Assembly: GCA_040768745.1 (NCBI GenBank)
Contig: JAXGMI010000001.1
Location: forward strand, 416,001 to 480,000
DNA length: 64,000 nt
From: Desulfomicrobium sp.
Lineage (GTDB): Bacteria > Desulfobacterota > Desulfovibrionia > Desulfovibrionales > Desulfomicrobiaceae
Reading direction: 5' to 3'
A program made the position numbers. The stretch's first letter is position 1. Every line of letters begins with the position of its first letter. Of this stretch, positions 15,001 through 21,000 are shown piece after piece.

Positions 15001-18000
15001 ACGGATCTTCAACATCACCGAAAGTGCCCACCGCATCCACAACCCGTTCACACCCGAAAAGCTCGCCACTCTCGGCATGGCGCTGCGTCTTGAAACGGGG
15101 ACCCGAGTGCTCGACCTCGGCAGCGGTTCGGGGGAGATGCTGTGCACCTGGGCACGCGATCACGGCGTCATCGGCACCGGCATCGACATGAGCCGTTTGT
15201 TCACCGAGCAGGCGAAACTGCGCGCTGAAGAACTCGGCGTGGCCGATCGGGTCACCTTCATCCATGGCGATGCTGCAGGCTATGTCTCTGACGAGAGGGC
15301 CGGTGTGGCCGCCTGTGTCGGCGCCACCTGGATCGGCGGGGGAGCCGTCGGCACTATCGAGCTTCTGGCGCAAAGCCTCCTCCCCGGAGGGATCATCCTC
15401 ATCGGCGAACCCTACTGGCGGCAGTTGCCTCCGACAGAAGATGTTGCCAGGGGCTGTCTTGCCAACTCGATCTCCGACTTTCTCCTGCTTCCAGAACTTC
15501 TCGCGTCTTTCGGCCGCCTTGGCTACGACGTCGTGGAAATGGTTCTGGCAGACCAGGACAGCTGGGACAGGTACGAGGCGGCCAAGTGGCTGACCATGCG
15601 CCGATGGCTCGAAGCCAATCCCGACGACGAACTCGCGAAGGATGTTCGAGCCAAACTGACCTCGGAGCCCGGGCGGTACGCCGCTTTCACGCGTGAGTAC
15701 CTGGGCTGGGGTGTGTTCGCGCTGATGACACGGTGATGAGGGGATTGCCAGGCGATTCAGAAAGTGAAGAACATCCGATCATGATTTTCAACTGATTCAA
15801 GCCGATGCCGCTTCGTGGCGCGGCTTCATTCAGGTGTTGGCCTGCTTATGACTGTACCCCTGACGCCATCCTGACAATTGAAAGGGAAAAACAAACAGAA
15901 ATGACCAGAGTAGGTCTGCGCATGAGGCGTTCGACTGTCTGCCAAGGCGTTGGAAAAGGAACCCCTCGTAGCCAGAGGACGAAATCAGCAACTCCCTGCC
16001 AGATCAGAACAACCACGACCAGAGGGATGAATGCCCGAAGGACCCCCCTCATCATAACGCCCTCAAAGAACGCCCGCCGGGGTGGAGCGGGCAGCCCGGC
16101 CCAAGGCATTCGGCGTTCTGCGAGGACTGCATGCATCGCAGGACGTGGTTGACGCTGAGAGCTACGGGCAGCAGCTTCGCAGAAAGTTCGGCCGCTTTGT
16201 TCAGGGCGATCCAGCCATCACGCTGGCAGCAGCGGGCCGCCTTGAAGCGGGCGATCTCGGCCAGCACTGCCTGGGTCACGCCCTGGACCTGCTTGCGCTC
16301 CCGGGCTTTGATCGGGTTGGCGTCGAGCAGCAGGCTGTAAGCGATGCCCACTCCCACCGCCGCACCGCAGACTCCCATGAACCCGCAGAACCCGCCGGCG
16401 ATGCCCCTGCCGCGAGAGATGGCCGTCTCGATCAATTTCTCCGACACCTCGCCTCCGAGGTTCCTGTAGGCGGTCAGGATGATGCCGGGGATCATTGCGT
16501 GGTACTCCGGTCCATGCACGGGCACTGCCGGATGCTGCCGAATCTGTACGAAGAGCTTCAGCATGTCCTTCTCAGTGCTGGAGAGACAGATATGCCTGAT
16601 GACCTCCACGGCGTCGGCCCCATGGCAGGCGTCACAGACAAAATGTCCGTTCTCGCACTGCCCGCTGGCCCGGAAAGAAAGCCCGCAATAGGCGCAGGAC
16701 CGCTCCTGGTCCCCGCGGAAATAGGTCAGGGGTGCTCCGCAGACCATGCACCCGGTGCCCTGTTTCAGCGCTGCCGTGGCGTCCGAAGCGGGAGCCCGGC
16801 TTTTTTCGGGCGGCCTGTAGCAGGCGCAGGTGTTTTCGGCCTCGACATTGAGCGTGGTCCCGTCCGAGCCGAGCTGGAAAACCTGGTCCCCCAGAAGGTC
16901 GGCCTCCTGGCGGGTCACGGCCACCGTCGCCCCCTTGGGCAGGAGCGTACCGGAGGCCAGGAGCAGGTACGGCAGCGGACCGCGGTACATGACATCGACA
17001 GAGTCTTCGTTCAGGGGCTTCTGCGCCGAAAATGTCAGGGAAAAGAAGGGATGTCCGGCCACCTGGCGATAGGGGAACCGCTTGAGCAGGCGTACGCCCG
17101 TGAAGCCCAGCTCCTCAAGCAGTGCGCAGAGGTGCGCAATGTTCAGGGCCCCAGCGATGCACTCGCCCCGAAGCATCTCGTCGTTGCGGATGGCGGCGTC
17201 GGGTTCGGACTCGCAGACCACGTCGGAGATGACCAGACGCCCGCCCGGCCGCAGTACCCGCAGAATTTCGGAGAAAGCCCGCCGCTTGTCGGTCGACAGG
17301 TTCATGACGCAATTGGACACGACCACGTCGGCCGATTCGTCCTGCAGGGGCAGGCTCTCCAGATAGCCGCCGCGGAAATCGAGGTTGTCGTATCCGAGGT
17401 TCGCGGCCACCTGAGGTTGGGCCTTGCGGGCCAGGTGGAGCATGGAGTCGAGCATGTCCACGCCGATCACGGATCCGTCCGGGCCCACAAGCCTGGAGGC
17501 AATGAAGCACTCCACGCCCGCACCACACCCCAGGTCGACCACCCTCTCGGTCGGCCGGACATCCGCATCCAGCACCGGGCTGCCGCAACCGTAGCCGCGA
17601 AAGCGGAATGCCTCGGGGACGTGCGCGATGAGATCCGGAGCGTAACAGACGGGGTTGAGAATGCCCTCCTTGGTGTCTCCGGCTGCCTGCGTGTAGAACT
17701 CCTTGATGGAGGTCAGGCTGTCCTGCTGCGCCGTGGCCAGGAGGCAGTTCGAATGCAGAAAGGCGACATTGCCGTGCGCCCCGCACGACCGCAGAGTCTC
17801 ACCCATTTGCAGCACGATTCCCGGCTTGACCGGACGGGGATGTTTTCGCGCCTCGCGGGCGATCAGCCACAGGGCCAGACGCTGATGCAGGGGTTCGTAT
17901 GGGTCGTCGCCCATGAAGCTGCCCTTGTGCACATAGCTGTGATCCATGTCGCCGCCGCCAAGGATGAAGCGCCACGGGGACTGGATTTGCGCCACGCTGG

Positions 18001-21000
18001 TGCCGCGAATGCGTTGCAGGATCGGACTTTCGAGCCGGGCTTCGAGGAGGCCGTCGGGCATGTCTGTGGCCAGCTCGGGTCTGCCCACCAGGGCGGCCGA
18101 TGGGTAGAGACGGCCATCGGGACCTACGGCCAGAGACTCCCAGCCTCCGGATGACCCGTCATGGATCGTGCCGGCCGGGGCGAATATCTGTGATTTCAGG
18201 GCCTCGACATTGTCGATGCCCACGCCCCGGCGCTCGGCCAGGTCTGTCGCGCGGGTGAGATTGTCGAATATGTCATCCAGTGGAGGGAACTTTTCCGGCG
18301 TCCCGCGTCCTTCCACGAAATACCACATGAAATGGACGTTCCCCGCCCCACGATCGGCCGCGAAATCAATGACATCCATCATCTGCGCGACATTGTCCCG
18401 CGTCACGCACATGGACAGCGTGAAGGGGACAGCCCGCTCGCGAAGTCCGTGCAGGGTGCGGCACAGGCGGGTGAAGGCGCCCTGGCCCCGCAGCAGATCG
18501 TGCGTGTCCCCCAGGCCGTCCAGGCTGATCTGGACGTGGAACCTCTCCGGGTCCGGCGTGTTGCGATCTAGAAAAGCAAGGAGCTTCAGGCCGTTGGTCA
18601 GCATCACGAGATGCGTGTCCCGCCTGGAAAGAATGCCATCGACTATGGCGTCTATCTCCGCATGGACAAGAGGCTCTCCGCCGGTCAGGGCGAACAGGCG
18701 GCATCCGGTTTCGTAGGACTCCTCGACAATGGCCGAAACAGAACCGGCCGACAGTTCCGTGTCATCTTTCGGCGAGCAGGTGAAAAGGCAGTGCGCGCAC
18801 GTCAAGTTGCACCGGTTGGTGACATGAAACCACAGCTCCCGCACCGGACCCAGCTCAACCTGCCTGTCTCTTCCCAGATACGAGGCTTTGCGAATCCGGG
18901 GAATCCGCGCGAGAAAGGCTTCCCCCTCAGGGCCGGCACACGTCGAATCTGAAAGCCGCTGAAGAATGGAGTCCCCTGCCGGATTAGGGACAAACCAGTG
19001 CGGTTCTTCGAGGCTGACAAAAATTGGCTGGCCCATGGATTCATAACGATTCCAGGAATTCAAAAATAGTTCCATTAAAACTTTATCCTATTGTAATTCA
19101 ATAACAATAAAATACACTGTTCATGGAATACAATTTCTTGTTCAACATCGTCCTGACTCGCAATCAATTCGACGTATTGTTATTCTTTTTACAGGGAGGC
19201 TTCGTCCAGTTTATGCAGATAATGAACGACCTCCCAGCCATGCATGGTCATGGATTTTCTGCGGACCCACTCCCTCAGTCGGGATGTCATGGAACCCAAG
19301 CTGTGGGCCAGACAGTTTTTTGCAGGTGCCAACACCCTGGCCGGAGAGCCCTTTTCCGTTCATCCCGGCTTTCTCCCGGAGTTCAGGCATTAACCCACCC
19401 CCAGACCGCGTGCACGGGATCGGAATGCTGGATCATGGGGTAATACCGGTCCCGGGCGTCCATGGGCCGGGGCCACCCGCGTTCGGACAAGGTATGGAGG
19501 CCCTGGAAACGGCCGCTCAACCGGAACATCTGGGCAACCATCGCCACGCGCTCAAATTCGTGCAGTTCTGTCCAAATCCGCACGGCCTGGTCCGGGAACC
19601 AGCGGTGTGAAAAAACCATGACGCACAAACCCCCCGGTTCAAGCACCCGTGCAACCTCCCGGAACACGTCCACCGGACGGGTCAGGTACTCCACGGACAG
19701 GCTGCAGACCACGGCGTCGAAAGATCCTTCCCCATAAGGCAGGACAGGGTTGGCGTTCAGGTCGTGCACGAGAAACGTTGACAAGGCCGGATTGTCGGCC
19801 AGCTCCTCCGCGTTCATGCCCAGCCCCGAGGCTGTCACCCCGTGGGGCAGGTGGGACTGCCAGCCGGCCATGAGGTCCAGGATGCGCTTCTTGCCGGTCA
19901 GGAGGCTCGCGTAGATGCCCTCGATGACGGCCCTGGCCTGGCTGTCTACGTGGGCAACCTTGCGCGGGGTGGAGTAGAACGCGGCATCGTTCCCCCCCAG
20001 CGGTTTGTCCAGGGGCCTGCCCAGACCGAAATCCATGCCCTGGGCAGGCTTCCTTTTCAGCCCCGGACCGTCGGTCAGGGCGCAGATCCAATCCTGGCAC
20101 TGTCCCCCGAACTCGGCAGTCTTGGCCCAGACATCCAACGCCGCAATGTCCAGTTCCGCGTGGACGCCAGCCAAAGGGTGATTCAGATCCACTGTCAGCG
20201 TGGTCTCGTCCATGTCGATGACGCGGAACGGGTTGATATTCTGGGGGAAAATTCCAGGCAGGCCGCGCAACACCCCCTGGGGATAGAAACGGCCCCGCAC
20301 CGGTACGATGCCCGTCATCCCGGGCTTGAAGCTGGACCGGGAAACACGCTGCACCTTGCCTTCATCACGGCACGGCAGATGGATTCCAGGCATGAAAGGC
20401 ACACGGATGGACGACCCTTTCTCCAGTCCGGTCAACGCTTTTCCCAACTCCCCTGGAAAATAATCACGCCACATGTTCACGTTCTGGGCATAGAACCTGT
20501 CTTCGTGGCAGATGTCGTGTTCCTCCCAGTGCAGACGGAAATGGACATTGGCCAGGGTGTCTGTGCAAATGGCGGTCATGACTGCCTCCAATTTTTACGT
20601 AATGAGAATTTTTTCTATTAATAGGAGAACGCCGGCAGTCAAGAACCGAGCGCCCTGCGAAATTCAGACAAAAAAAGGCGTCCCCATGGACGCCCCAGTC
20701 ATGGAGTTTGAACCAGCAATCCTATTCGATGACTTCGATGCAGTCGTCAGGACAGTATGCTGCGGCCTTGCGGGCCAGATCTTCCTCGCAAGGGTTTTTC
20801 AGCACCATGGCCACATGCGCCCCCTCGTCGTAGGCAAAAATATCCGGGGCCATTTCCACACAAGCCAGACAACCCGAGCAACAGGGCCGGTTCAGGGCCA
20901 CTTCCACCATTCTCATCGCACTCCTCCCAGATATTTTTCAAGCCGCCGCATGCCTTCTCCGATGTTCTCGATGGAATTGGCGTAGGAAAAACGGATGTAC

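What a model noticed while it worked through the whole genome (the two positions that open the first line are those of the whole stretch)
16052..19075. Three-domain radical SAM / ArsM-like / DUF5714 enzyme
g00417 (1007 aa) fuses a canonical CX3CX2C radical-SAM domain, an arsenite-methyltransferase (ArsM)-type domain that keeps the As(III)-binding cysteines, and a Cys-rich DUF5714 domain related to the 'metal-binding double selenoprotein MbdU'. I read it as a single-polypeptide organo-arsenical (C-As bond forming plus methylating) synthase of anaerobes, the missing ArsS/ArsM-type partner of the TIGR04283/TIGR04282 'arsenosugar' glycosyltransferases that this genome also carries. If true, it defines a new, widespread anaerobic route to complex organoarsenicals (or another metalloid) that no paper describes.
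Evidence so far: Pfam table: Radical_SAM 85-239, Methyltransf_31/ArsM-like 462-691 (SwissProt ArsM 41-44% id), DUF5714 826-997. NCBIfam relaxed scan: arsenite methyltransferase NF008823 1.4e-61, arsinothricin ArsM 8.6e-48, arsenosugar ArsM 3.2e-36, MbdU NF045648 2.5e-37 on 762-995; all under curated cut-offs, so no named family. 1312 homologues E<=1e-3, the best 120 all about 1000 aa with the same architecture, named at most 'DUF5714 domain-containing protein'. In an alignment of these 120 C89/C93/C96 (CX3CX2C), C497 (YGCGSP), C589 (SNCV), C639 (GECIxGA), i.e. the three ArsM As-binding Cys, and 17 Cys of the C-terminal domain are 98-100% conserved. In 74 loci from other genomes the gene lies within 6 kb of a [...]
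(Added by a program. Inside this text positions count along the whole contig: contig position 416,001 is position 1 of the stretch shown here. "Call 12" and the like, gene names such as g00115 and contig names such as C1 are that model's own, and its searches are not shown. The text may have been shortened before it was handed on; [...] marks where a part breaks off. The agent that wrote the report below was given it as the finding of a first reader that could run no searches.)

Follow-up and report, generated by a model that had tools for sequence, protein, structure and literature searches.

The report
Fused radical-SAM arsenic-type methyltransferase enzyme
A large, well-conserved enzyme of oxygen-avoiding bacteria joins a radical-forming domain, an arsenic-type methylating domain and a cysteine-rich metal-binding domain, and it seems to replace a known arsenic-sugar enzyme in genomes that lack that enzyme.

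Summary
A 1007-aa ORF lies on the minus strand at 16052-19075. It has an invariant CX3CX2C radical SAM domain, an ArsM-type methyltransferase domain that keeps the three As(III)-binding Cys, and a Cys-rich DUF5714 tail. 1313 homologues were found.

New here:
- The N-terminal part folds like the sactipeptide maturase CteB (Z 27), but the SPASM-fold part has no conserved Cys.
- DUF5714 gives a confident model that matches no solved fold.
- The pathway link is strong. In 301 genomes of the phylum, all 23 fusion genomes carry TIGR04282. The fusion is in 20 of 53 TIGR04282+ genomes without ArsS, against 3 of 109 with ArsS. Chlorobia repeat this (8 of 33 against 2 of 62).
- Fusion loci and ArsS loci share the same partner genes: DedA/VTT, TIGR04283, TIGR04282 and a lipid hydroxylase.
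- Bona fide ArsS-ArsM fusions also exist.

Best reading (0.5): it fills the ArsS role, plus methylation, in an arsenosugar-type pathway of anaerobes. The chemistry and the substrate are untested.

Novelty is reduced. A 2024 paper, of which I saw only the title, reports an "ArsSM fusion protein" in a sulfate reducer. I rate this a new variant of a known kind.

The parts
16052..19075 (-). Whole ORF, 1007 aa plus stop (P0001)
   Evidence: 1313 homologues, the best 120 being full length at 51-63% identity.
18860..19075 (-). N-terminal domain, residues 1-72: three strands then two helices. It superposes on the N-terminal domain of CteB and TigE.
   Evidence: AF2 model m342fded0a5cc. VIA-align: model 6..410 against CteB chain 2..448, Z 27.1, and model 1..417 against TigE. 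anSME, which starts with the core, aligns only from model residue 77. W8, R10, W27, F28 and P30 are invariant. That the CteB domain is a peptide-recognition element (RRE) is recalled, not tested.
18176..18847 (-). Radical SAM core, residues 77-300
   Evidence: Pfam PF04055 on 85-239. The GGEP motif T131-P135 is invariant. Fold matches to CteB, SkfB, anSME, SuiB and PqqE with Z 21-27.
18788..18811 (-). CX3CX2C motif: C89, C93, C96
   Evidence: Invariant in 120 of 120 homologues.
17831..18175 (-). SPASM-fold extension, residues 301-415, without any conserved cysteine
   Evidence: Covered by the CteB and anSME superpositions. No Cys is invariant or nearly invariant between C223 and C431. 'YPS' and 'GGGDxDHS' stand where I recall SPASM enzymes carrying Cys.
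17738..17803 (-). Linker with an invariant CX12C: C431 and C444, in 'SCGAHG...HSNCL'
   Evidence: Invariant together with H441 and N443. Low pLDDT in the model.
16976..17722 (-). ArsM-type SAM methyltransferase domain, residues 452-700, with C497 (YGCGSP), C589 (SNCV) and C639 (GECIxGA). C477 is 79% conserved.
   Evidence: NF008823 on 473-670, 208 bits. CmArsM 4kw7/4fr0 E 2.5e-35 with the motifs in register. The three Cys are invariant.
16820..16828 (-). CxC motif in the second linker: C750 and C752
   Evidence: C752 is invariant and C750 is 98% conserved in full-length homologues. Stand-alone DUF5714 proteins, which start at the Zn ribbon, lack it.
16622..16753 (-). Zn-ribbon-like CxxC...CxxC (C776, 779, 794, 797), followed by the Cys/His knuckle C807-x3-H811-x2-C814-x2-C817-H818
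   Evidence: All invariant. Weak Zn_ribbon_PriA match, 3.4e-5. Beta hairpin in the model. Conserved in stand-alone forms too.
16085..16600 (-). DUF5714 helical domain, residues 826-997, with C897, C903, C949, C950, C981, C990 and C995
   Evidence: PF18978, 195 bits. AF2 pLDDT 93.8. No Foldseek PDB match at E<=1e-3. Weak matches to Fe-S proteins at Z 6.0. Weak C_GCAxxG_C_C hit, E 0.0029.

Best explanation
The gene encodes a four-module enzyme that takes the radical-SAM place of ArsS, with a built-in ArsM-type methyltransferase. It serves the ArsS / TIGR04283 / TIGR04282 / DedA ('arsenosugar-type') gene system of anaerobes whose genomes lack ArsS.

Proposed working:
1. A trivalent soft metalloid, most likely As(III), is held by the Cys triad C497/C589/C639 and methylated with SAM.
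2. The radical SAM domain cleaves a second SAM at its single [4Fe-4S] cluster. It adds the SAM-derived carbon radical (5'-deoxyadenosyl, as ArsS does) to the trivalent methylated arsenic.
3. That reaction is redox neutral. This would fit the loss of the auxiliary-cluster cysteines of the SPASM fold.
4. The Zn-ribbon/DUF5714 module binds metal or Fe-S centres. It serves as metalloid carrier or electron relay.
5. The product goes to the glycosyltransferase-like TIGR04283, the nucleotidyltransferase-like TIGR04282 and the membrane protein DedA/VTT, perhaps ending in a sugar or lipid conjugate.

Shown: the domain anatomy, the conservation, the folds, the co-occurrence and the shared gene neighbourhood.
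Inferred: the substrate, both reactions, their order and the role of DUF5714.
For: Anatomy:
- CX3CX2C and GGEP are invariant, as are the three ArsM As(III)-binding Cys.

Own genome:
- It has the TIGR04283+TIGR04282 pair but no ArsS and no canonical ArsM over cut-off. The fusion is its best match to both families.

Phylum sample of 301 genomes:
- A long fusion is in 23 genomes from 17 families, and all 23 have TIGR04282. 0 of 139 TIGR04282-negative genomes have it.
- Among TIGR04282+ genomes the fusion is in 20 of 53 without ArsS and in 3 of 109 with ArsS.

Independent lineage (Chlorobia, 101 genomes):
- 10 of 10 fusion genomes have TIGR04282. The fusion is in 8 of 33 TIGR04282+ genomes without ArsS and in 2 of 62 with it.
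- Prosthecochloris ethylica, Malonomonas rubra, a Nitrospiraceae MAG and a Victivallales MAG all have TIGR04282. Only 1 of these 4 has ArsS.

Operons:
- TIGR04283/TIGR04282-type genes lie within 3.5 kb in 16 of 75 loci, 13 of them directly downstream on the same strand.
- A VTT/DedA gene is present in 20 of 75 loci, mostly directly upstream.
- In G192 the order is VTT, TIGR04282, TIGR04283, rSAM-ArsM, DUF5714 on one strand.

Same slot as ArsS:
- In 18 ArsS loci, VTT is present in 10, an OlsE-like FA_hydroxylase in 2, a pyridine-nucleotide-disulfide oxidoreductase in 4 and the Se-associated LysR in 1. The same families flank the fusion.

Recurrent fusion logic:
- A bona fide ArsS (TIGR04167, 368 bits, cut-off 300) is fused to an ArsM-like domain in G160. 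Frames of 676-704 aa are seen in 4 more genomes.
- Three TIGR04282+, ArsS-negative genomes carry other rSAM-ArsM fusions.

Known chemistry, read in passages of PMC13598754:
- ArsS adenosylates DMAs(III) without a net reductant.
- ArsL binds As(III) through C-terminal cysteines.
Against: - No biochemical data exist for this family.
- The radical SAM part is not an ArsS relative (TIGR04167 40.9 bits, cut-off 300). It is a CteB-like RiPP-maturase fold with an N-terminal domain of the kind that binds peptides in those enzymes.
- The ArsM-like domain scores under the NF008823 cut-off (208 against 263).
- In 59 of 75 loci, and in this window, no TIGR04283/TIGR04282 gene lies nearby. The window's own neighbours recur in none of the 80 loci.
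- No ArsR, Acr3 or ArsC gene recurred beside the gene. The genome's Acr3 lies 1.1 Mb away.
- In this phylum ArsS is not coupled to a canonical ArsM (32 of 114 against 51 of 187). So the 'arsenosugar' label of the partner genes may not hold for anaerobes. It is NCBI's label and, as far as I recall, rests on one ArsS enzyme studied in cyanobacteria.
- Selenium- and sulfur-related neighbours occur: LysR NF040786 in 8 loci, and rhodanese or CoA-disulfide reductase.
- The co-occurrence tests are not corrected for phylogeny.
- 28 of the 53 TIGR04282+ genomes without ArsS have no rSAM-ArsM gene that I found.
Confidence: 0.5

Rival explanations
1. It is only an arsenite methyltransferase adapted to anoxic life. 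The ArsM-type domain makes MAs/DMAs for detoxification or as a weapon. The radical SAM and DUF5714 modules only supply electrons or reduce the enzyme's disulfide or As(V) intermediates, and no C-As bond beyond methyl is made.
For: - The ArsM-type domain is complete in its catalytic cysteines and SAM motif.
- 19 of 23 fusion genomes have no canonical ArsM over cut-off.
- The title of Yang et al. 2024, seen only in reference lists, says that a sulfate reducer with an 'ArsSM fusion protein' methylates arsenic.
- A two-domain form of methyltransferase plus DUF5714, without rSAM, exists (P0125, 522 aa, on a 2.5 Mb contig).
- A stand-alone DUF5714 sits in a corrinoid methyl-transfer cluster next to the reductive activator RACo. 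That fits a redox helper role.
Against: - Plain methylation does not explain why every fusion genome has TIGR04282, why the fusion avoids genomes with ArsS, or why it shares the ArsS operon slot.
- The radical SAM motifs for SAM cleavage (CX3CX2C, GGEP) are invariant. That would be costly for a mere electron relay.
Confidence: 0.2
2. The same pathway logic holds, but the substrate is another soft element (Se, Te or Sb). The gene system then makes a seleno- or other chalcogen/metalloid sugar or lipid in anaerobes.
For: - Neighbours include the 'selenium metabolism-associated' LysR NF040786 (254.9 bits, cut-off 250; 8 of 75 loci), rhodanese, and CoA-disulfide reductase with rhodanese (6-7 loci).
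- Many ArsS genes of the phylum carry an in-frame TGA.
- The closest named relative of the C-terminal module is the double selenoprotein MbdU, and several ArsM-like NCBIfam models are selenoproteins (table in PMC13188914).
- ArsS is not coupled to canonical ArsM in this phylum.
Against: - The three cysteines that bind As(III) in solved ArsM structures are invariant and in register.
- Using selenocysteine in an enzyme says nothing about its substrate.
- The LysR lies within 3 kb in only 2 loci.
- No selD or other Se-activation gene recurred beside the gene.
Confidence: 0.12
3. It is a peptide- or protein-modifying maturase. The CteB-like N-terminal part recognises a peptide, perhaps the enzyme's own Cys-rich linker or tail, and the radical SAM and methyltransferase domains modify it.
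For: - The best structural matches are RiPP maturases. They include the N-terminal domain that only CteB and TigE share with it (Z 27.1 and 24.3).
- The NCBIfam matches of the radical SAM part are ScmF, the mycofactocin maturase, SkfB-like and AlbA-like models.
- There is an invariant CxC in the linker and 16 conserved Cys in the tail.
Against: - No small ORF recurs beside the gene. The only small clusters seen were in 2 loci each.
- All auxiliary-cluster cysteines of the SPASM fold are lost. As I recall, thioether- and crosslink-forming maturases need them.
- The methyltransferase is specifically ArsM-like with the metalloid-binding triad.
- The association with ArsS-system genes is unexplained by this reading.
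Confidence: 0.08

Closest known systems
ArsS (TIGR04167), the arsenosugar radical SAM enzyme
   Same: - It is a radical SAM enzyme with Cys-rich parts.
- It has the same genomic partners: TIGR04283, TIGR04282 and VTT/DedA.
- The two occur in a complementary way across genomes.
- ArsS too is found fused to an ArsM-like domain.
   Different: - There is no family-level homology: 40.9 bits against a cut-off of 300, and 24% identity over 139 aa to the G160 ArsS part.
- The window's domain is a CteB-like fold with a Cys-less SPASM extension.
- It has no DUF3641-type tail, but DUF5714 instead.
ArsM / AS3MT arsenite methyltransferases (NF008823; CmArsM structures 4fr0, 4kw7)
   Same: - The SAM-binding core.
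- The three As(III)-binding cysteines in register: YGCGS, SNCV and GEC.
   Different: - It scores under the curated cut-off (208 against 263 bits).
- It covers only model positions 43-235 of 272.
- It is embedded between a radical SAM domain and DUF5714.
- The first Cys of the four-Cys set is only 79% conserved (C477).
'ArsSM fusion protein' of a paddy-soil sulfate reducer (Yang et al. 2024, Environ Sci Technol 58:19266; title seen only)
   Same: By its title, it is a fusion of an ArsS-type and an ArsM-type part, in a sulfate-reducing bacterium that methylates arsenic.
   Different: Unknown, because the paper is not held. It may be the TIGR04167-ArsM type that I found in G160, a short rSAM-ArsM type, or this three-domain family. 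Nothing I could read mentions DUF5714 (0 papers).
CteB, TigE, SkfB, anSME: radical SAM/SPASM peptide maturases
   Same: - Overall fold of residues 6-410 (Z 24-27, rmsd 3.0-4.6).
- CX3CX2C.
- An N-terminal domain like that of CteB and TigE.
   Different: - No conserved cysteines for auxiliary clusters.
- No recurring precursor peptide gene.
- It is fused to a metalloid-type methyltransferase.
MbdU (NF045648) and C_GCAxxG_C_C (PF09719) proteins
   Same: - The C-terminal module aligns to MbdU model positions 28-264 (2.5e-37).
- The motif C...GxCGAxxG...CC resembles C_GCAxxG_C_C (E 0.0029).
   Different: - It scores far under the MbdU cut-off (129 against 600 bits).
- It has no selenocysteine.
- The PF09719 score is under its cut-off (18.1 against 27).
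- No function is known for either family.
ArsL (arsinothricin radical SAM enzyme)
   Same: It forms a C-As bond with a SAM-derived radical on As(III) held by cysteines (passages of PMC13598754).
   Different: ArsL cleaves SAM non-canonically and has a C-terminal RCCLKC motif. No ArsL model appeared among the 25 NCBIfam families shown of the 86 that matched.

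Membership tests
Radical SAM superfamily (PF04055) | CX3CX2C motif that binds the [4Fe-4S] cluster | tested here: met
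   C89, C93 and C96 are invariant in 120 of 120 homologues.
Radical SAM superfamily (PF04055) | Profile score over the gathering cut-off, and a partial TIM-barrel fold | tested here: met
   60.3 bits against 29.5. Z 21-27 to solved radical SAM enzymes. GGEP is invariant.
SPASM/twitch radical SAM subfamily | C-terminal SPASM fold | tested here: met
   Model 6..410 aligns to CteB 2..448, and model 77..411 to anSME 2..365.
SPASM/twitch radical SAM subfamily | Conserved cysteines that bind one or two auxiliary Fe-S clusters | tested here: not met
   No invariant or nearly invariant Cys lies between C223 and C431 in 120 sequences.
ArsS (TIGR04167) | Profile score over the curated cut-off (300 bits) | tested here: not met
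   40.9 bits on model positions 7-144. TIGR04167 is not among the 25 NCBIfam families shown.
ArsS (TIGR04167) | Genomic association with TIGR04283/TIGR04282 | tested here: met
   23 of 23 and 10 of 10 fusion genomes carry TIGR04282. The genes are adjacent in 16 of 75 loci.
ArsS (TIGR04167) | Adenosylation of DMAs(III) | not testable with these tools
   This needs an enzyme assay.
ArsM (NF008823) | Profile score over the curated cut-off (263 bits) | tested here: not met
   208.4 bits on model positions 43-235 of 272. 211.4 bits in the genome search.
ArsM (NF008823) | Three As(III)-binding cysteines (CmArsM C72, C174, C224; numbering recalled) | tested here: met
   YGC497GS, SNC589V and GEC639 align to the same motifs of 4kw7/4fr0. 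They are invariant.
ArsM (NF008823) | SAM-binding glycine-rich motif | tested here: met
   D514, G516, G518 and G520 are invariant. Methyltransf_31/11/25 match over their cut-offs.
DUF5714 (PF18978) | Profile score over the gathering cut-off | tested here: met
   195 bits against 26.2, covering profile positions 1-172 of 173.
MbdU (NF045648) | Score over the cut-off (600 bits) and two selenocysteines | tested here: not met
   128.9 bits. The ORF is open with no in-frame TGA.
C_GCAxxG_C_C (PF09719) | Profile score over the cut-off (27 bits) | tested here: inconclusive
   18.1 bits, E 0.0029, on residues 884-950. The resemblance is at motif level only.
'ArsSM' fusion (Yang et al. 2024) | Domain architecture and sequence of the published protein | not testable with these tools
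   The paper is not held. Only the title was seen in three reference lists.

The most novel reading that the evidence does not exclude
Strict anaerobes (sulfate and metal reducers, green sulfur bacteria, Nitrospirota, Victivallales) make a so far unseen arsenic-containing sugar or membrane lipid. They do so through a pathway whose key enzyme is this self-contained three-active-site synthase.

In this reading a RiPP-maturase-derived radical SAM domain has lost its auxiliary clusters. It uses its peptide-recognition-like N-terminal domain to hold the enzyme's own Cys-rich linker or tail as an in-cis carrier of As(III). The arsenic passes from the ArsM-type site to the radical site. DUF5714 is a new metal/Fe-S fold that serves methyl-transfer enzymes in general.
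Probability: 0.15. Interest if true: 0.85.

Novelty: new variant of a known kind. Interest (0 to 1): 0.6.

Why it matters
Arsenic methylation and organoarsenical formation in anoxic soils and sediments affect rice disease and food safety (abstracts of PMC12124457 and PMC12478174). The enzymes of anaerobes are little known.

If this reading holds:
- About a tenth of the sampled Desulfobacterota and Chlorobia would make the ArsS-type step with a different, fused enzyme (23 of 301 and 10 of 101 genomes).
- The gene would have to be counted in surveys that now look only for arsM or arsS.
- The still unassigned partner genes (TIGR04283, TIGR04282, DedA, lipid hydroxylase) would gain a testable function.
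- DUF5714, a confident model with no solved relative, would get its first functional context.
- A SPASM-fold radical SAM enzyme without auxiliary clusters would be a useful case for radical SAM mechanism.

Cultured carriers exist for genetics: Malonomonas rubra DSM 5091 and Prosthecochloris ethylica N3.

Tried and rejected
- Complex prediction, with residues 1-450 and 452-745 against the DUF5714 module 765-1007: no verdict, score 0.00. It is not used either way.
- Foldseek of the DUF5714 model against PDB: no match at E<=1e-3. The VIA-align wide search gave only weak rows. The top two were the split-Soret cytochrome c 1h21 and CyuA 9fsl, both Z 6.0 and under the tool's own caution line of 8-13 for helical folds. 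I treat 'Fe-S-like' as a lead only.
- A profile of the module against PDB sequences found only Zn-ribbon-like HypA at E 0.18.
- The ESM Atlas search of the module gave no usable hit.
- Rfam on 13000-23000 gave only a chance HCV CRE hit (21.6 bits, gathering score 140). There was no promoter-like site, and terminator-like sites were not informative. So there is no riboswitch or leader to report.
- The window's own neighbours are a 402-aa protein with a C-terminal methyltransferase domain (19383-20591, minus), a 248-aa methyltransferase (14990-15736, plus) and DUF1330. None has a homologue in the 80 related loci. I rejected them as conserved partners.
- The cyanobacterial-type AsSugarArsM (NF038099) was over cut-off in 0 of 301 genomes. 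So 'the fusion replaces AsSugarArsM' is not a meaningful test in this phylum.
- The Yang et al. 2024 paper could not be opened by DOI or by PubMed id.
- The search for 'MbdU' returned 65 papers. The 20 listed were all unrelated.

Full report
OBSERVATION.

The window holds a 1007-aa ORF on the minus strand, 16052..19075, with an ATG start.

NCBIfam gives arsenite methyltransferase NF008823 at 1.4e-61 (208 bits, cut-off 263), arsinothricin ArsM at 8.7e-48, AsSugarArsM at 3.2e-36 and MbdU at 2.5e-37 on 763-996. The radical SAM part matches SPASM-class maturase models (ScmF, mycofactocin, NirJ, StsB, AlbA). All matches are under their cut-offs.

A sequence search of the PDB aligns residues 482-668 to the solved ArsM of Cyanidioschyzon (4kw7/4fr0, E 2.5e-35). 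YGCGS, SNCV and GEC are in register. It aligns residues 83-280 to SkfB (2.8e-14). Nothing matches the C-terminal 340 residues.

A search of 5.8 billion proteins gives 1313 hits at E<=1e-3 among the 8000 candidates scored. The best 120 are 976-1109 aa, 51-63% identical to the query, and have the same Pfam set. The names given are at most 'DUF5714 domain-containing protein'.

In an alignment of 120 full-length sequences these residues are invariant: C89/C93/C96, the GGEP motif 132-135, C497, C589, C639 and the SAM motif D514/G516/G518/G520. So is a long series in the tail: C752, C776, C779, C794, C797, C807, H811, C814, C817, H818, C897, C903, C949, C950, C981, C990 and C995.

- C431 and C444 form an invariant CX12C in the linker before the methyltransferase.
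- No conserved Cys lies between C223 and C431.

ANATOMY AND FOLDS.

Residues 1-470 were modelled with 56 homologues taken from related loci (pLDDT 86.5, pTM 0.88). Foldseek and the second look by VIA-align put this part next to the sactipeptide maturase CteB (5why_B: Z 27.1, rmsd 3.3, 370 residues, model 6..410 against chain 2..448). TigE, SkfB, SuiB, anSME and PqqE follow. Only CteB and TigE also cover model residues 1-72. anSME aligns from residue 77.

So this part has the build of a RiPP maturase: an N-terminal domain, a radical SAM core and a SPASM fold. In CteB the N-terminal domain is described as a peptide-recognition element; this is recalled, not tested. The SPASM fold here has lost the cysteines that hold auxiliary clusters.

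Residues 765-1007 were modelled with 77 short DUF5714 proteins (pLDDT 93.8, pTM 0.91). The model is a beta hairpin (Zn-ribbon-like) followed by an eight-helix bundle. Foldseek finds no PDB match at E<=1e-3. The wide VIA search gives only weak rows. The two best are both iron-sulfur proteins: split-Soret cytochrome c 1h21 and CyuA 9fsl, each Z 6.0. Pfam gives a weak C_GCAxxG_C_C hit (E 0.0029). I take 'metal or Fe-S binding helical module of unsolved fold' as the safe statement.

The module also exists alone. It occurs as proteins of about 225-250 aa on long contigs, which start right at the Zn ribbon. A two-domain form of methyltransferase plus DUF5714 also exists (P0125).

SURROUNDINGS IN THE WINDOW.

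Upstream on the same strand lies a 402-aa protein with a C-terminal methyltransferase domain. Downstream and convergent lie a 248-aa methyltransferase, a DUF1330 protein and an IS200-type transposase. None of the first three has a homologue in any of 80 related loci. There is no Rfam element and no clear promoter. The local context is therefore not informative.

THE GENOME.

The genome is 3.09 Mb in 3 contigs.
- It has one DUF5714 gene, which is this one.
- It has an adjacent pair TIGR04283 (215 bits, cut-off 182) and TIGR04282 (161 bits, cut-off 134) at C1:301250-302657, behind feoAB.
- It has no ArsS over cut-off. The best match is the fusion itself at 40.9 bits.
- It has no canonical ArsM over cut-off.
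- An Acr3 arsenite pump lies 1.1 Mb away.

CO-OCCURRENCE.

I searched the same 301 genomes of the phylum four times and counted the results (counts).
- DUF5714 is in 33 genomes. 23 of them have it in a frame of 900 aa or more, and these come from 17 families.
- TIGR04282 is in 162 genomes, ArsS in 114, and canonical ArsM over cut-off in 83.
- All 23 fusion genomes have TIGR04282. None of the 139 TIGR04282-negative genomes has the fusion (Fisher 5e-7).
- Among TIGR04282+ genomes, the fusion is in 20 of 53 without ArsS and in 3 of 109 with ArsS (Fisher 9e-9).
- These tests treat genomes as independent, which they are not.

An independent lineage gives the same picture. In 101 Chlorobia, 10 have the fusion, and all 10 have TIGR04282. 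The fusion is in 8 of 33 TIGR04282+ genomes without ArsS and in 2 of 62 with it (p 0.003).

Four carriers from other groups all have TIGR04282, and one of the four has ArsS. They are Prosthecochloris ethylica, Malonomonas rubra, a Nitrospiraceae MAG and a Victivallales MAG.

Against a simple 'ArsS plus ArsM' picture:
- The cyanobacterial AsSugarArsM model is over cut-off in 0 of 301 genomes.
- Canonical ArsM is no more frequent with ArsS (32 of 114) than without it (51 of 187).
- 4 of 23 fusion genomes have a canonical ArsM.

GENE NEIGHBOURHOODS.

A scan of one genome per species found 246 relatives, and 80 loci were kept. They come from Desulfobacterota, Chlorobium/Prosthecochloris, Nitrospirota, Victivallales and Myxococcales MAGs. 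I dropped five loci without a full-length target (L066, L075, L077, L092, L094), which left 75. I called ORFs, clustered them and annotated cluster representatives.

Recurrent neighbours:
- TIGR04283 and TIGR04282, often fused into one protein of about 430-460 aa. They lie within 3.5 kb in 16 of 75 loci, and directly downstream on the same strand in 13.
- A VTT/DedA membrane protein (PF09335) in 20 loci, mostly directly upstream.
- CoA-disulfide reductase with rhodanese, in 6-7 loci.
- A LysR of the 'selenium metabolism-associated' model, in 8 loci.
- TrmO-like proteins, in 5-6 loci.
- FA_hydroxylase, directly upstream in 4 loci.
- No ArsR, Acr3 or ArsC cluster recurred.

Split forms are telling. 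In G192 the order on one strand is VTT, TIGR04282, TIGR04283, rSAM-ArsM (761 aa), DUF5714 (334 aa). G291 has the same split.

I then fetched 18 ArsS loci of the same phylum. I chose ones where TIGR04282 lies on the same contig, so TIGR04282/3 presence there is by choice. They carry VTT in 10 of 18, an OlsE-like FA_hydroxylase in 2, a pyridine-nucleotide-disulfide oxidoreductase in 4 and the LysR in 1.

The fusion and ArsS thus sit in the same operon slot with the same accessory genes. This is the strongest argument that they do the same job in one pathway.

OTHER FUSIONS.
- In G160 a bona fide ArsS (368 bits, cut-off 300, residues 10-308) is fused to an ArsM-like domain (residues 322-547, with YGCGSP, SNCV and ECLGGA). 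ArsS frames of 676-704 aa occur in four more genomes.
- Its methyltransferase part is 30% identical to that of the window, so I take the two fusions as separate events.
- Three TIGR04282+ genomes with neither ArsS nor DUF5714 carry further rSAM-ArsM fusions of 828, 615 and 631 aa.
- Altogether 25 of the 53 TIGR04282+ genomes without ArsS have some rSAM-ArsM gene.

STAND-ALONE DUF5714.

It occurs in other company:
- between an ArsR/SmtB regulator and a DGC-domain protein (G121);
- between the corrinoid reductive activator RACo and CobW, next to a URO-D type methyltransferase and DUF1638 (G013);
- near TrmO-like and CopD-like genes (G216, G243).

This suggests a general helper role with methyl-transfer or metal-handling enzymes. 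It is one reason to keep rival 1 alive.

LITERATURE.
- 'DUF5714' occurs in 0 papers.
- 'ArsM' + 'radical SAM' + 'fused' occurs in 0 papers.
- 'radical SAM' + 'arsenite methyltransferase' + 'fusion' occurs in 2 selenoproteome reviews. I read passages of the 2026 one (PMC13188914); they only list families.
- DUF2064/TIGR04282/TIGR04167/DUF3641 occur in 6 papers. None looks functional, judging by listing and abstracts.
- From passages of PMC13598754: ArsS adenosylates DMAs(III) to DDMAA in a redox-neutral reaction. ArsL adds an aminocarboxypropyl radical to As(III) held by C-terminal cysteines.
- The reference lists of PMC12124457, PMC12478174 and PMC12685052 cite Yang et al. [quoted passage not shown] The paper is not held. 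I saw the title only, and the citing texts give no architecture.
- So the idea of an ArsS-ArsM fusion in sulfate reducers is in print. Whether it is this three-domain family is open. No supplements were consulted.

HOW IT MOST LIKELY WORKS.

Shown:
- A radical SAM site with one cluster and intact SAM motifs.
- An ArsM-type site with the metalloid-binding triad.
- A conserved multi-Cys/His module.
- Nesting within genomes that carry TIGR04282.
- Avoidance of genomes with ArsS.
- The shared operon slot.

Inferred:
- As(III) is bound and methylated at the ArsM-type site.
- A SAM-derived radical, probably 5'-deoxyadenosyl as in ArsS, is added to the trivalent methylarsenical at the radical SAM site. 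The loss of auxiliary clusters fits a redox-neutral radical addition.
- DUF5714 and the two Cys-bearing linkers carry the metalloid or electrons between sites.
- The product is passed to TIGR04283, TIGR04282 and DedA. The lipid hydroxylase and DedA hint at a lipid-linked end product.

I put this at 0.5. The rivals are a pure anaerobic arsenic methylase with redox helper domains (0.2), the same logic with Se, Te or Sb (0.12), a peptide or self-modifying maturase (0.08), and other readings for the rest.

VERDICT.

It is not a member of ArsS, ArsM, MbdU or the cluster-bearing SPASM group by their defining scores or residues. It probably works like ArsS plus ArsM. I rate it a new variant of a known kind, with interest 0.6.

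Noticed in passing
L131:7556-9544 (+), from genome G160: A 662-aa protein in which a bona fide ArsS (TIGR04167, 368 bits, cut-off 300, residues 10-308) is fused to an ArsM-like methyltransferase (residues 322-547). TIGR04283, a VTT fusion protein and TIGR04282 follow it. ArsS frames of 676-704 aa are also seen in G154, G129, G219 and G246. This may be the published 'ArsSM' type.
   Followed up: partly
L136:7456-9942 (-), L137:7899-9746 (-), L138:4676-6571 (+): Further radical SAM-ArsM fusions without DUF5714, of 828, 615 and 631 aa. They occur in three genomes that have TIGR04282 but neither ArsS nor DUF5714. The 828-aa one has the window-type radical SAM part (7.9e-39).
   Followed up: partly
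L107:9422-10033 (-) and its neighbours, from genome G013: A stand-alone DUF5714 (203 aa) lies between the corrinoid reductive activator RACo (610 aa) and CobW. A URO-D type methyltransferase and DUF1638 are nearby. So DUF5714 also occurs in a corrinoid methyl-transfer gene cluster.
   Followed up: no
L106:7421-9410, from genome G121: An ArsR/SmtB metalloregulator, a stand-alone DUF5714 (245 aa) and a DGC-domain protein lie in a row on one strand.
   Followed up: no
Phylum sample: In this phylum ArsS is no more often accompanied by a canonical ArsM (32 of 114) than genomes without ArsS are (51 of 187). Many ArsS hits carry one in-frame TGA, read as selenocysteine forms. The 'arsenosugar' naming of the system may not fit anaerobes.
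   Followed up: partly
L113:8548-12660, from genome G029: A full-length fusion (1022 aa) lies directly next to a second, stand-alone DUF5714 gene (230 aa) on the same strand.
   Followed up: no
window 46008-61963: A type I secretion set: a C39-peptidase ABC exporter (46008-48221, minus), a giant 3699-aa repetitive protein with Ig-like and RTX repeats (48546-59645, plus, GC3 0.88), and a TolC-like outer membrane factor (60605-61963, plus).
   Followed up: no
window 13655-14500 (+): An IS200-type Y1 transposase lies 1.5 kb from the gene's 3' end, beside DUF1330 and an unrelated methyltransferase. A local rearrangement could explain why the gene has no conserved partner here.
   Followed up: no
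window 19383-20591 (-): A 402-aa protein lies directly upstream on the same strand. It has a methyltransferase domain only in its last 140 residues and an N-terminal 250 residues without any family match. It has no homologue in the 80 related loci.
   Followed up: partly
window 40435-41877 (+): A DnaA-type gene (DnaA_N, Bac_DnaA and Bac_DnaA_C domains) lies inside the window. I did not check whether it marks the replication origin.
   Followed up: no
L112:12208-14583 (-), from genome G291: A heavy-metal P-type ATPase with an HMA domain lies directly upstream of a split rSAM-ArsM (741 aa) plus DUF5714 pair.
   Followed up: no
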